Source: a virus (lineage: Duplodnaviria; Caudoviricetes). From it: DNA of 64,000 nt. Below the pieces are notes generated by a model. The model saw only the letters and a list, made by a program, of their open reading frames with translations, did no database searches and was not told the origin of the DNA. The DNA lies in the IMG/VR virus record IMGVR_UViG_3300046167_000798, one strand, 5' to 3'. This document shows, piece after piece, positions 36,995 to 64,000 of the stretch (position 1 is the stretch's first letter; each line of letters opens with the position of its first letter). Position numbers and translations under genes: made by a program.

Positions 36995-37039
36995 TGACAT
37001 TTTGTCAGTTTTGTAAGGTTATAGTATGACAAAGTGTCA
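36995..37039. promoter_or_regulatory. Two TGACA-N3-TGTCA palindromes upstream of Hsp20
   Basis: 36995-37007 and 37027-37039, 32 bp apart. Confidence 0.65.
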
Positions 37040-37854: not shown

Positions 37855-38372
37855 TATAATAATTTTTCCAATATACTATCCCAAGTTGGATATTCATTTG
37901 GTTTGTTATCGTTTTCCCAATCAAATCCAAATCTTAATAGTTTACCACTAAACTCACCAGCTCCATTTTTCAATCTATCATCGATAAGGTAATCACCCAT
38001 CAACAAATCTTTTCTGTGAGTAGTAAACATTCTCTTGTGAAAGATATCACCAAAGTAATCTTCTAACCAAAATCTTTTATCAGTAAGAGATTGTGGGTTA
38101 CCCCATGGAGCGGAAGTAGCTATGAATAATTCATACTTACCACTATCGTGTAATTTTTTTACTGCCTCAATTGCTCCTTTCATTGGTGGAGCTATTCTGA
38201 ATAATCCTTGGATGTGGTCAGGAAAAGTTTCATACCTCCCCTTTAAATGTGGATGATTAGTAAACCAATCTTCGATTGCTTTACCGAAATCAACTAATAC
38301 TCCATCCATATCGATGTAAACTATTTTTTTCTTCAATACTTTTTGTTTTTTATGGTTATTATTATCACTCAT
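37854..38372 (-). CDS. 5'(3')-deoxyribonucleotidase, HAD family
   Basis: YIDMDGVLVDF, IATSAPW, KRFWL, GDYLIDDR. Confidence 0.88.
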   Translation of the reverse strand: MSDNNNHKKQKVLKKKIVYIDMDGVLVDFGKAIEDWFTNHPHLKGRYETFPDHIQGLFRIAPPMKGAIEAVKKLHDSGKYELFIATSAPWGNPQSLTDKRFWLEDYFGDIFHKRMFTTHRKDLLMGDYLIDDRLKNGAGEFSGKLLRFGFDWENDNKPNEYPTWDSILEKLL

Positions 38373-38379
38373 TTACTAT

Positions 38380-38414
38380 GTAAATATACGAAAAATATTT
38401 GGATTTACCAAATA
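38380..38414 (-). promoter_or_regulatory. Early promoter
   Basis: TTTG-gtaaatccaaatatttttcg-TATATTTA. Confidence 0.75.
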
Positions 38415-62212: not shown

Positions 62213-62452
62213 TTAGTCTTGAATTACCACAACATCACTTAGTTGTGCCTTTACATACTTTTCTTTGGAATTAATCAACCTTTCAGATTCGAAGGTTTCA
62301 ATTGCGGTGATACATTTTTCAAGAGTGATATATCTCCTCTCTATAAAGTAACTCCTCAACTTTGGTGCTTTTAAAACTGTAACCATATTAGGGAAGTTCT
62401 CAGTCGGAGTATCTTCTATGATTACGTTTCTGTGTTTGTACTGTTTACTCAT
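62213..62452 (-). CDS. Hypothetical early protein
   Basis: 79-aa ORF. Confidence 0.6.
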   Translation of the reverse strand: MSKQYKHRNVIIEDTPTENFPNMVTVLKAPKLRSYFIERRYITLEKCITAIETFESERLINSKEKYVKAQLSDVVVIQD

Positions 62453-62529: not shown

Positions 62530-62781
62530 TTATTTTATAATTCCTACACTTCTTAAGAACGCATCTCCCACTAAGGGTTCAACTGAATCTTTAACTGCCA
62601 TAATTACTTTTGAATCGAATTGTCTTTGGATAAAGTAATCCAATTTTTGGTGAATCCTATCTATCTCCCTCAAGTCAGGTTCTTTCGTATTCATTACCTC
62701 ATCATTTAACTTACCAGTCCAATACTGAATTTTACCCATGTACCCATTTTCATACTTACTCATTTTACTCATTTTACTCAT
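62530..62781 (-). CDS. Hypothetical early protein
   Basis: YLGKIQYW-like motif (YMGKIQYW); follows the promoter cassette at 62816. Confidence 0.6.
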   Translation of the reverse strand: MSKMSKMSKYENGYMGKIQYWTGKLNDEVMNTKEPDLREIDRIHQKLDYFIQRQFDSKVIMAVKDSVEPLVGDAFLRSVGIIK

Positions 62782-62869
62782 AATTTACGTTTTATTGATT
62801 ATCCTTATTTACATAGTAAATATACGAAATATATTTGAATTGACCAAGCAATTAGTGAATTATTTTTCA

Positions 62870-62882
62870 TGACAATTTGTCA
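62870..62882. promoter_or_regulatory. TGACA-N3-TGTCA palindrome
   Basis: TGACA-ATT-TGTCA just upstream of the early promoter cassette. Confidence 0.6.
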
Positions 62883-63016
62883 ACCTCGTTCTTGTAGTAT
62901 TACTCCCACCCTCAACCACCCTAAAGGTACGAAAAAAAATCCACATATACAAGTTTTTAGGGTAAAAGTTATTAACACCCAATTGTGGATAACTTTATTG
63001 TTAATAACTTTATGAC

Positions 63017-63389
63017 AAAAAAAACCCACCAAGTGAGACCAGATGTTTCTAGGTGGGTGGTTCGGAATGAACACTTAGGATAGGAGAGAGAGTGTGGTCT
63101 CCTTTATAACCACTTTATATCGGAGGAAACCCCTTACCTCCTAGTGGTAATCATCGATTTGGTGCGTAGTATCATTTCATCGCCTGTGACACCTCATCGT
63201 TATATGTGGTAATTCGTTGTTTAGAGTGAGAAAAATTACCTAACAGCTCACATTTCGTTAAAAGAGATTCAGTTTTTATAGTAGGTGTATCTCCTAACAC
63301 TACTGACGGCCTCTAATTCTATTAAGAGGAGGTCTTTTGGATTAACTAGAGAGGGAATCAAACCCTATTTTCTCAATCATCAATCATTT
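63017..63389 (-). ncRNA. Candidate ~370-nt structured non-coding RNA
   Basis: Early promoter at 63395-63410, no ORF, at least six hairpins, and a CCCACC/GGTGGG stem plus T8 terminator at 63017-63057. Confidence 0.6.
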
Positions 63390-63443
63390 ACTATGTAAAT
63401 ATACGAAAAAAAATCCATATATCCTAGTCTTTTCTTGTTTTTT

Positions 63444-63629
63444 TTACAAATTCTTTTCTCCAAGGTATAGACCTACTGAATAGGATATCAATGCAACCCC
63501 CATTATCACTATACTTTCCAAAGGATTCTTCATAGCAAATAACAAAAGGGAGAAAAACCCTCGAATAATCATCGGTAACACTAACAGATCAGCTAACCCT
63601 ATTACTACACCTACCCCTATATAGGGCAT
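63444..63629 (-). CDS. Small membrane protein
   Basis: Hydrophobic 61-aa ORF after the promoter variant at 63671-63683. Confidence 0.5.
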   Translation of the reverse strand: MPYIGVGVVIGLADLLVLPMIIRGFFSLLLFAMKNPLESIVIMGVALISYSVGLYLGEKNL

Positions 63630-63809
63630 CTAACTTTATTATATCTCTCATATCAATCATAATTACAGGTACAATATACGAAATTTATTCCACATATACA
63701 AGCATTTTTTAACATTTATTTTTCATTTATTTCAGTTCCTACACTCACACTCCCACCCACAACCACCCTAAAGATACAACTTTTTTTTGGATTGCACAAA
63801 TAAAAAGGA

Positions 63810-63957
63810 TGACAATGTGTCATAGTACGAGGGATTTACGATTTTTTCAATAAATGCTCCTTTTTTTACGAATTCTCTAAAATGATGACATTGTGTCACG
63901 TGCGTCGTATTACGAATTTCATAATTGGGGGTTAGGGTGTGAACTGACAAGGTGTCA
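63810..63957. repeat. Three TGACA-N3-TGTCA palindromes
   Basis: 63810-63822, 63886-63898 and 63945-63957. Confidence 0.7.
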
Positions 63958-64000
63958 TATTCACTTAGGAAAAAAAATTGACCAGACGAAACACACACTA

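What the first reader, a model, noticed from the sequence alone, without database searches (positions are those of the whole stretch)
63017..63410. Candidate novel ~370-nt structured RNA with its own early promoter and terminator
Seen: promoter at 63395-63410, terminator at 63017-63057, and no real ORF between (the longest ATG frame I found is about 12 codons). Stems, in plus-strand letters: GGAGA/TCTCC (63083-63102); ACCACT/AGTGGT enclosing GGAGG/CCTCC (63109-63148); GTGAG/CTCAC; AGTA-GTGT/ACAC-TACT; GAC-CCTCT/AGAGG-GTC; and a 5' hairpin capped by AGGG-TTTGATT-CCCT, which is T-loop-like. I cannot match it to a family I know. Inference: an abundant immediate-early RNA, such as an anti-defence decoy, sponge or scaffold.
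Basis: partly seen in the sequence, partly recalled or inferred. Interest (0 to 1): 0.72.

Follow-up and report, generated by a model that had tools for sequence, protein, structure and literature searches.

The report
New modular structured RNA of marine phages
The stretch is a real, protein-free gene for a roughly 370-base folded RNA, and it belongs to a previously undescribed RNA family found once per genome in more than a hundred large marine phages; its function is unknown.

Summary
At 63017-63426 (minus strand) a repeated phage promoter (14 copies in the window) drives about 373 nt with no conserved reading frame, ending in an intrinsic terminator.

Relatives fetched through a neighbouring protein, then through a DNA pattern, gave more than 120 marine metagenome and IMG/VR contigs and 98 distinct 3' domains. 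These show strong covariation for:
- a 5' clamp stem;
- hairpin H1;
- hairpin H2, which has an invariant UUAAGGGGUUU loop;
- the terminator stem;
- a pseudoknot between GGAGACC and the terminator loop.

The middle of the RNA is modular. In different relatives it is empty, or holds extra hairpins (as here), a tRNA-like module, or a 57-aa ORF (one lineage).

There is no match in Rfam 15, in cultured phage genomes or in the literature library. Among 185,579 species genomes the only match is one short, probably phage, contig.

Function is unknown. My best guess is a stable trans-acting RNA whose invariant loops bind a conserved partner. The scan had not noted this element on other DNA.

The parts
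63395..63426 (-). Promoter: -35-like TAGGAT (63426-63421), 17-nt spacer, -10 TATATT (63403-63398). It lies within the repeated core TTTCGTATATTTAC (63408-63395). The predicted start near 63391 is inferred, not measured.
   Evidence: 14 copies of the family in the window, all on the minus strand and upstream of genes. 88 of 106 assessable homologues carry the same promoter 29-31 nt before the 5' module.
63340..63385 (-). 5' module M1. Clamp stem P1 is GATTGAT (63385-63379) with GTTAATC (63346-63340). It encloses the conserved GAUUGAGA (63378-63371) and CUCUA (63351-63347).
   Evidence: P1 covaries. Cognate arms pair better than non-cognate arms: z = -12.5, 0 of 2000 permutations, 45 distinct arm pairs such as CTTACC/GGTAGG and GGTTCT/AGAACC. 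The cap hairpin is absent or different in most members.
63249..63329 (-). Dispensable 81-nt insert with two hairpins: CCTCT/AGAGG (63329-63325 with 63314-63310) and AGTAGTGT/ACACCTACT (63304-63297 with 63288-63280).
   Evidence: Absent from close relatives L008, L010, L011, L012, L014 and L015, and present in L007, L009 and L013. There is one compensatory C-G to U-A change in CCTCT/AGAGG. A copy of the second hairpin lies upstream of H1 in L076.
63208..63240 (-). Hairpin H0: GGTAATT (63240-63234) with AATTACC (63214-63208). Found only in a subset of members.
   Evidence: Compensatory A-U to G-C change (GGTAGT/ACTACC) in the L007 and L009 types. L017 carries both alleles in tandem.
63155..63199 (-). 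Hairpin H1. CGAT/ATCG and GGTG/CACC close a 25-nt conserved loop, UCACAGGCGAUGAAAUGAUACUACG.
   Evidence: All 8 modelled pairs show changes on both sides (helices 1-2). Cognate versus non-cognate test: z = -6.1. The GAUGA core is kept in all three H1 variants.
63109..63148 (-). Hairpin H2. Inner stem GGAGG/CCTCC (63141-63137 with 63126-63122) caps the invariant loop UAAGGGGUUU (63136-63127). The outer extension ACCACT/AGTGGT is specific to this lineage.
   Evidence: 7 of 7 pairs have double changes and 91.9% of cells are paired. Cognate versus non-cognate test: z = -19.3. GGG and UU of the loop are invariant in 98 sequences.
63095..63101 (-). 5' strand of the pseudoknot (GAGACCA). It pairs with TGGTCTC (63041-63035) in the terminator loop.
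   Evidence: One search lists covarying types: GGAGACC/GGTCTCC, GGAGGCT/AGCCTCC, GGGTGAT/ATCACCC, GAGAGAC/GTCTCTC; z = -10.9, 0 of 2000 permutations.
63061..63091 (-). Near-invariant segment UCUCUCUCCUAUCCUAAGUGUUCAUUCCGAA. It is modelled as unpaired, though a small GUUC/GAAC hairpin is possible.
   Evidence: Conserved in the six haplotype groups that were found through a protein, independently of the RNA sequence. In the pattern-derived set its invariance is partly due to how the set was collected. It contains 1-nt indels, so it is not coding.
63017..63057 (-). Intrinsic terminator. Stem CCCACCTAG (63057-63049) with CTTGGTGGG (63033-63025). The loop holds the pseudoknot's 3' strand (63041-63035). 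U8 tract at 63024-63017.
   Evidence: 98.7% of cells are paired and 6 pairs covary; z = -17.4. The T-run length varies from 6 to 10 among homologues.
63017..63218 (-). Extent of the family's conserved 3' domain as matched by covariance model R1.
   Evidence: 158.2 bits, E = 9e-27. This is the only copy in the window.

Best explanation
This is a stand-alone gene for a modular, highly structured non-coding RNA of about 373 nt (minus strand, roughly 63391 to 63019). It is transcribed from a host-polymerase-type phage promoter and ended by its own intrinsic terminator. It belongs to a previously undescribed family found once per genome in large marine myoviruses.

Architecture that is shown:
- a 5' clamp module (P1 stem around GAUUGAGA...CUCUA);
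- a variable middle slot;
- a conserved 3' domain made of hairpin H1, hairpin H2 with an invariant UUAAGGGGUUU loop, a near-invariant pyrimidine-rich segment, and a terminator hairpin whose loop forms a pseudoknot with an upstream GGAGACC.

Mechanism that is inferred: the pseudoknotted 3' end and the 5' clamp make a compact, nuclease-resistant particle. The invariant loops form the working surface and bind a partner conserved across hosts or phages. That partner could be a component of the translation or RNA-processing machinery, or a conserved phage protein. On this reading the RNA acts in trans as a decoy, scaffold or guide during infection. In some relatives the same transcript also carries a tRNA-like module, so processing into several stable RNAs is possible.

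The confidence of 0.6 is for the whole statement, mechanism included. That this is a genuine, conserved, structured non-coding RNA gene of a new family I put at about 0.9.
For: Gene signals:
- An exact promoter copy, a terminator and no ORF.
- In 89 of 106 distinct downstream flanks the next promoter follows at a median of 53 nt, so this is its own transcription unit.

Family:
- More than 120 marine contigs and 5 IMG/VR stretches hold it, giving 98 unique 3' domains.
- There is one copy per viral record; the 276-kb complete record shows it twice only because of its end repeat.

Structure:
- 86.0% of cells are paired, against 71.2% after shuffling and 39-48% after sliding the partners.
- The covariation score is 0.415, against 0.175 (shuffled) and 0.09-0.12 (slid).
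- Alignment-free tests of cognate against non-cognate arms give z = -10.9 (pseudoknot), -19.3 (H2), -17.4 (terminator), -12.5 (P1) and -6.1 (H1), with 0 of 2000 permutations each.
- Many G-U pairs occur (for example 36 and 37 cells in two pseudoknot pairs). These would be A-C mismatches on the other strand, so the fold belongs to the minus-strand transcript.

Selection on the RNA itself:
- The loops stay invariant while the neighbouring 79-aa protein has mostly diverged to 56-80% identity (three rows 22-25%).
- Forms with an empty middle slot are common.
Against: - No expression data.
- The minimum free energy of the window's sequence is no better than that of shuffles (z = +0.23).
- The invariance of three sequence blocks in the large set comes partly from the search pattern used to collect it.
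- The permutation tests are not corrected for phylogeny.
- No partner is identified. No antisense target above chance was found in the 64-kb window. The conserved neighbouring protein has no recognisable RNA-binding fold.
- One lineage carries an ORF inside the unit. There, the ends of the RNA serve as untranslated regions of an mRNA.
Confidence: 0.6

Rival explanations
1. It is a stable-RNA operon precursor rather than one functional RNA. The promoter-proximal module, the middle cargo and the 3' domain are cut apart (RNase P, Z or E) into separate small RNAs, as in the T4 tRNA and RNAC/RNAD region. In the window's phage, only the 3' domain would then matter.
For: Long-form relatives carry a roughly 165-nt tRNA-like module between the 5' module and H1. 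It has acceptor stem GGAATAG/CTATTCC and T-arm GTTGG-TTCAAAT-CCAAC. The window holds a similar tRNA-like element as a separate locus at 57807-57915. The modules occur in different combinations. A tRNA-Cys gene often lies 0.6-1.2 kb downstream.
Against: The window's copy has no tRNA-like module, so no obvious RNase P or Z site. The 5' module and the 3' domain co-occur in 88 of 106 copies, including the shortest forms, which suggests they work together. No processing data exist.
Confidence: 0.2
2. It is an empty expression cassette. The 5' module and 3' domain would be untranslated regions of a small early mRNA whose ORF was lost in this lineage, left behind by the promoter/terminator-mediated (PeSL-type) shuffling typical of variable regions in T4-like phages.
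For: In L024-L031 a 57-aa ORF sits exactly between the 5' module and the junction GAAATGTGAG. This ORF is a homologue of the window's 83-aa protein. The region is mosaic, with indels at module borders, a tandem duplication in L017 and unrelated upstream genes. The terminator is directly followed by the next promoter, as in PeSLs (PMC4122927).
Against: Only one haplotype group of about 100 has an ORF. ORF-less forms, including minimal ones, dominate. Their stems covary while their loops stay invariant, which a decaying remnant would not show.
Confidence: 0.07
3. It is a cis-acting leader or attenuator. The structured 3' domain would control read-through of its terminator into the conserved downstream genes (the 83-aa and 79-aa proteins).
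For: There is conserved synteny: a homologue of the 79-aa protein lies downstream in 106 loci. The structure ends in a terminator and has conserved, ligand-pocket-like loops.
Against: The downstream genes have their own promoter a median of 53 nt after the terminator. The pseudoknot pairs with the terminator loop, not its stem, so it does not compete with termination. No alternative anti-terminator pairing was seen.
Confidence: 0.08
4. It encodes a small peptide, either the 12-codon MIEKIGFDSLSS frame or a frame running through the 3' domain.
For: An ATG lies in the conserved GATTGATGATTGAGA. In many relatives an ATG (AAATGGAGAC) opens a 40-57-codon frame through the conserved block, and these frames cluster together by BLAST.
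Against: Neither ATG is conserved; the window has AAAGGAGAC, and other relatives have CTTACCGATTGAGA. Single-base indels occur inside the conserved block, and the T-run varies from 6 to 10, both of which break any frame. Substitutions are compensatory in stems rather than synonymous.
Confidence: 0.02
5. It is a DNA-level element, such as a replication origin, packaging site or recombination hotspot, and not an RNA.
For: It lies in a region rich in palindromes and repeats: TGACA-N3-TGTCA, a 13-bp inverted repeat and a G-rich repeat.
Against: Strand-specific G-U pairs are frequent in the covarying helices. The element is framed exactly by a promoter and a terminator in most of the assessable homologues (88 and 89 of 106).
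Confidence: 0.03

Closest known systems
Phage T4 stable RNAs RNAC and RNAD (species 1 and 2 RNAs of the tRNA region)
   Same: They are phage-encoded, stable, structured non-coding RNAs of a T4-type myovirus, genetically linked to tRNA or tRNA-like genes. Their function is still unknown; PMC9697503 calls them 'RNAs of yet unknown functions'.
   Different: No sequence similarity: blastn against 50,697 phage records found nothing. That T4 is among those records is assumed from memory, not checked. The element here is longer (about 205-550 nt) and has its own promoter and terminator. It also has a defined 5' clamp, an H2 loop and a terminator-loop pseudoknot. PMC9697503 classes the T4 RNAs as late, whereas this one has a host-type, presumably early, promoter.
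GOLLD and ROOL large ornate RNAs (Rfam; cryo-EM in PMC12286853)
   Same: They are complex structured RNAs of unknown function found in phages and prophages, often next to tRNA genes, and recognised through covariation in metagenomes.
   Different: No match to either Rfam model. The element here is much smaller and has a different architecture. Nothing is known about whether it forms oligomers.
PeSL (promoter-early stem-loop) cassettes of T4-like phages (PMC2839356, PMC4122927)
   Same: There is a terminator stem-loop directly followed by an early-type promoter, repeated through a variable region of small ORFs. Mosaic indels occur at these borders.
   Different: PeSLs are short DNA-level recombination and regulatory motifs that flank ORFs. 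Here a 200-nt structured domain with invariant loops and covarying stems lies between promoter and terminator and has no ORF.
H-type pseudoknotted 3' ends and tRNA-like structures of viral RNAs
   Same: A 3'-terminal hairpin loop pairs with an upstream segment and stacks on the stem to give a compact 3' end.
   Different: Here the hairpin is a bacterial intrinsic terminator followed by a U-tract. The pseudoknot partner lies upstream and is joined by a conserved linker of about 45 nt. There is no CCA end and no aminoacylation signature.

Membership tests
Any Rfam 15 family (4227 models, including tRNA, tmRNA, 6S, RNase P, Y RNA/YrlA, GOLLD, ROOL, IMES, PhotoRC and riboswitches) | A score at or above the family's gathering threshold, or at least a convincing sub-threshold match. 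| tested here: not met
   (gathering thresholds, whole window): only 5 tRNAs, all elsewhere. (E up to 10 over 62700-64000): only chance miRNA and lncRNA hits with E >= 1.4. (ten homologous loci including long forms): only ordinary tRNAs elsewhere.
tRNA / tmRNA / T-loop-containing tRNA mimic | A cloverleaf, or an acceptor stem plus T-arm with a conserved T-loop (TTCRANY). | tested here: not met
   ARAGORN finds nothing in 63017-63410. The AGGG-TTTGATT-CCCT cap varies or is missing in homologues. Some long-form relatives do carry a separate tRNA-like module, but the window's copy does not.
Intrinsic (Rho-independent) terminator | A G+C-rich hairpin followed by a U-tract at the end of the unit. 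| tested here: met
   a 9-bp stem with 98.7% of cells paired across 100 sequences, and a T-run of 6-10.
Host sigma-70/sigma-A-type phage promoter family of this genome | The shared motif cTTGGAT-N17-TATATT(T) upstream of genes on the coding strand. | tested here: met
   the exact 14-nt core at 63408-63395. Its -35 is TAGGAT against the family's TTGGAT. Activity and timing were not tested.
H-type pseudoknot (upstream strand with terminator loop) | The two segments covary, and the helix crosses the terminator stem. | tested here: met
   more than 50 distinct complementary pairs of segments; cognate -11.61 against permuted -9.77 kcal/mol, z = -10.9. On the model-based alignment only 71.6% of cells pair, because of register shifts. 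Whether the fold is sterically possible is argued, not computed.
PeSL cassette | A terminator stem-loop immediately followed by an early promoter, flanking variable ORFs. | tested here: inconclusive
   The terminator-then-promoter arrangement is present in 89 of 106 flanks, at a median of 53 nt, and the region is mosaic. This describes the borders of the locus, not the 200-nt conserved RNA domain.
Riboswitch / transcription attenuator | Mutually exclusive terminator and anti-terminator pairings upstream of a regulated gene. | tested here: not met
   No competing pairing with the terminator stem was seen. The pseudoknot uses the loop, and the downstream genes have their own promoter.
T4 RNAC/RNAD | Sequence or structural homology to the T4 rnaC or rnaD genes. 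| tested here: not met
   blastn against 50,697 GenBank phage records gave no match. That T4 and its relatives are among those records is assumed from memory, not checked. Structural homology was not tested, as no model is available.

The most novel reading that the evidence does not exclude
The invariant H2 loop, 5'-UAAGGGG-3', can pair with 7 nt of the universally conserved 16S rRNA 3' tail (5'-CCUCCUUA-3', from textbook knowledge, with one G-U pair). The invariant CUCUCUCCUAUCC segment itself resembles an anti-Shine-Dalgarno sequence.

The phage's own genes barely use Shine-Dalgarno sites: 13 of 63, against a 12% background, with A-rich leaders. This is the pattern seen in Bacteroidota, whose ribosomes normally hide their anti-SD tail.

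The RNA could therefore be a phage-made ribosome-targeting decoy. It would titrate or mark ribosomes with an exposed anti-SD tail, or it would present an SD/anti-SD mimic pair. Either way it would bias host translation towards SD-less phage mRNAs. That would be a new way for a phage to take over its host.
Probability: 0.07. Interest if true: 0.92.

Novelty: categorically new. Interest (0 to 1): 0.78.

Why it matters
Phage-encoded structured RNAs with an understood function are few. Even T4's RNAC and RNAD remain unexplained after decades.

This is a well-defined new family. It has more than 100 natural variants and clear covariation, and it combines an unusual terminator-loop pseudoknot, strictly invariant loops and a plug-in middle slot that accepts tRNA-like modules or an ORF. 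It is single-copy and syntenic in large marine myoviruses, which probably infect Bacteroidota.

The alignment is already deep enough for structure modelling and for designing probing, pull-down and cryo-EM experiments. The invariant loops point to a conserved cellular or phage partner that can be looked for directly. The family should also be added to RNA family databases, so that these 200-550-nt 'gaps' in marine phage genomes are annotated rather than filled with spurious ORFs.

Tried and rejected
- Rfam at gathering and at permissive thresholds, on the window and on ten homologous loci: nothing.
- ARAGORN: no tRNA or tmRNA in the element, and none called for the tRNA-like modules of the long forms.
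- Single-sequence folding: uninformative, with z = +0.23 on the minus strand and -1.54 on the plus strand.
- blastn against cultured phages: no match.
- The nearest held virus record, G001, does not reach this region.
- The search for related loci with three neighbouring proteins: nothing useful.
- Exact 20-23-mers of the window's RNA in IMG/VR: no hit.
- Genome collection of 185,579 species: one hit, on a 2.3-kb contig binned into an archaeal MAG, which I take to be a mis-binned phage contig.
- Antisense-target scan of the window with the three invariant segments: the longest matches (8-11 nt) are within what shuffled queries give. A slower duplex scan timed out.
- Function of the conserved neighbouring 79-aa protein: no Pfam, PHROG or Atlas family. 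The AlphaFold model is confident (pLDDT 87), but only weak, non-significant HicB-like fold matches came back.
- Literature: no paper describes the motif, and searches on its sequence strings gave only chance primer matches.
- Earlier scan notes: no look-alike stretch elsewhere.
- Rejected: the idea that the conserved block is coding (indels, variable T-run, non-conserved ATG), the T-loop analogy, and the local GGAGA/TCTCC hairpin.

Full report
**What is in the window.**
All genes of the 64-kb window lie on the minus strand. The DNA is 30% G+C. Gene starts are A-rich and almost free of Shine-Dalgarno motifs: 13 of 63, against a 12% background. A baseplate-wedge homologue and thymidylate synthase mark a large myovirus.

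A 14-nt core, TTTCGTATATTTAC, occurs 7 times exactly and 14 times with close variants. It is always on the minus strand and in front of genes, within a longer consensus cTTGGAT-N17-TATATTT. One exact copy sits at 63408-63395.

Downstream of it there is no credible ORF. At 63057-63017 lies a 9-bp G+C-rich hairpin followed by T8. On its own, the sequence does not fold better than shuffles (z = +0.23). It matches no Rfam family and no tRNA or tmRNA.

**Finding relatives.**
- DNA searches of cultured phages and exact-word scans found nothing.
- An exact look-up of the downstream 83-aa protein returned ten contigs of close relatives. Homologues of that protein led to more distant ones.
- Aligning the regions upstream of the gene showed the element in four haplotypes. 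Compensatory changes were visible by eye: GGAGG/CCTCC to GAAAG/CTTTC, CCTCT/AGAGG to TCTCT/AGAGA, and GGTAATT/AATTACC to GGTAGT/ACTACC. An 81-nt block is present or absent.
- More distant loci kept only the promoter, a 5' module and the last 130-250 nt.
It hit a single short contig among 185,579 species genomes.
- This gave 98 distinct 3' domains.

**Structure.**
I built covariance model R1 from the MAFFT alignment. It finds exactly one copy in the window (63218-63017, 158 bits) and one per viral record. The complete 276-kb record shows it at both ends only because of its terminal repeat.

On the model-based alignment of 101 hits:
- 86.0% of cells form standard pairs, against 71.2% after shuffling partners and 39-48% after sliding them.
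- The covariation score is 0.415, against 0.175 (shuffled) and 0.09-0.12 (slid).
- H2 has double changes in 7 of 7 pairs.
- The terminator is 98.7% paired, with 6 covarying pairs.
- Both H1 closing helices covary.

It covaries with GGUCUCC in the loop of the terminator hairpin: GGAGGCT/AGCCTCC, GGGTGAT/ATCACCC, GAGAGAC/GTCTCTC and many more.

An alignment-free test compares each sequence's own two arms with arms taken from other sequences. It gives z = -10.9 for this pseudoknot, -19.3 for H2, -17.4 for the terminator, -12.5 for the 5' clamp P1 and -6.1 for H1, with 0 of 2000 permutations in every case. These tests are not corrected for phylogeny, but the number of distinct arm combinations (27-78) is large.

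The pseudoknot's 3' strand abuts the 3' arm of the terminator. The two helices can therefore stack, with the 4-6-nt loop remainder crossing the groove and the conserved linker of about 45 nt closing the knot. That the fold is sterically possible is my reasoning, not a computation.

Frequent G-U pairs place the fold on the minus-strand transcript.

**Architecture of the family.**
88 of 106 assessable copies have the promoter followed, 29-31 nt later, by the 5' module: a covarying 6-7-bp clamp around GAUUGAGA...CUCUA. The distance from promoter to the CUCUCUCC block ranges from about 150 to 490 nt, so the RNAs are roughly 205-550 nt long.

The middle slot varies:
- empty (for example L162 and L080, about 236 nt);
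- extra hairpins (the window);
- a duplicated hairpin (L017);
- a roughly 165-nt tRNA-like module with an acceptor stem and two T-loop hairpins, called by neither ARAGORN nor Rfam;
- in one lineage, a 57-aa ORF homologous to the window's downstream 83-aa protein.

In 89 of 106 distinct downstream flanks the next promoter core follows at a median of 53 nt after the terminator. This makes the RNA an independent transcription unit.

The locus is syntenic. A small membrane protein lies upstream (83 loci), and a 79-81-aa protein of unknown fold family lies downstream (106 loci).

**Not coding.**
The ATGs that open frames in some members are not conserved. Single-base indels occur inside the conserved block, and the T-run varies from 6 to 10. 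Substitutions are compensatory in stems.

**What it does.**
This is inference. The stems drift while three loop or linker sequences stay fixed: AGGYGAUGAAA in H1, UUAAGGGGUUU in H2, and CUCUCUCCUAUCCUAAAGUGUUC. Meanwhile the neighbouring protein has mostly diverged to 56-80% identity, and three rows in that alignment are only 22-25% identical. That pattern is what one expects of an RNA whose loops contact a conserved partner or each other.

I found no antisense target above chance in the window and no RNA-binding signature in the neighbours. I therefore commit, at moderate confidence, to a stable trans-acting RNA particle. On this reading it has a 5' clamp and a pseudoknotted 3' end, and it binds a conserved component of the host or the phage.

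The main rival is that the transcript is a precursor cut into several stable RNAs, as in the T4 tRNA and RNAC/RNAD region. The 'empty mRNA shell', attenuator, peptide and DNA-element readings are each contradicted by specific results listed under the rivals.

One speculative lead: the H2 loop UAAGGGG is complementary to the 16S rRNA 3' tail, in a phage whose own genes avoid Shine-Dalgarno sites.

**Comparison with the known.**
The element matches no Rfam 15 family, no cultured phage and no paper in the library. It had not been noted elsewhere in this scan.
- It resembles T4 RNAC/RNAD (function unknown, PMC9697503) and GOLLD/ROOL (PMC12286853) only in kind: phage-borne, tRNA-linked, structured and unexplained.
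- Its borders behave like PeSL promoter-terminator cassettes (PMC4122927), which probably explains its modular reshuffling but not its conserved core.

**Limits.**
- The large set was collected with a fixed pattern, so the invariance of those blocks is overstated. More divergent members are probably missing.
- The host is inferred only from translation and promoter signals.

Noticed in passing
window 62870-62882, 63810-63822, 63886-63898, 63945-63957; also 36995-37007 and 37027-37039: Six copies of the palindrome TGACA-N3-TGTCA, four of them within 1.2 kb around the RNA gene. The same palindrome follows the RNA's terminator directly in 17 of 106 relatives. It looks like the operator of a DNA-binding regulator.
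   Followed up: partly
window 62903-62923 and 63750-63770 (minus strand): The G-rich 21-mer TAGGGTGGTTG[A/T]GGGTGGGAG occurs twice (none expected by chance). Each copy sits just after a decayed copy of the promoter (CTTGTATATGTGGA...TTTCGTA). A GGGTGG...GGGTGGG motif lies within 300 nt downstream of the RNA in 25 of 106 relatives. It might form a quadruplex or bind a protein.
   Followed up: partly
window 62965-63013: A 13-bp inverted repeat, AAAGTTATTAACA / TGTTAATAACTTT, lies immediately after the RNA terminator. GTTAATAAC-like sequences occupy the same place in 26 of 106 relatives.
   Followed up: partly
window 62213-62452 (minus strand): This 79-aa protein (motifs YKHRN, TPKLR, FESERLINSKEKYVK) has homologues downstream of the RNA in 106 loci. 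It has no Pfam or PHROG family. The AlphaFold model is confident (pLDDT 87; three strands, helix, strand, long helix), with only weak HicB-like fold matches.
   Followed up: partly
window 57807-57915 (minus strand); L142, L172, L124, L154, L098, L092, L130, L113, L052, L143: Long forms of the RNA carry a roughly 165-nt tRNA-like module: acceptor stem GGAATAG/CTATTCC, a GAGGTTCGAAACTC hairpin and a T-arm. ARAGORN and Rfam do not call it.
   Followed up: partly
window 38372-38393 (minus strand): At this copy of the promoter, the ATG of the 172-aa ORF (NT5C-like in the homologous loci) lies about 11 nt after the -10 box, which implies a nearly leaderless mRNA. The RNA gene begins with the same ACATAGTAAATGA but reaches a stop after four codons.
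   Followed up: no
L017:881-1244; L076:4047-4446; L011:1-180: Rearrangements within the family. L017 has a tandem duplication of hairpin H0 that carries both alleles. L076 has a second, tandem copy of the RNA starting 120 nt after the first. L011 has an inverted partial copy at its contig end, probably an assembly artefact.
   Followed up: no
L057, L078, L093, L113, L138, L163, L176: A tRNA-Cys gene lies 0.6-1.2 kb downstream of the RNA on the same strand in several relatives. The window has no tRNA-Cys.
   Followed up: no
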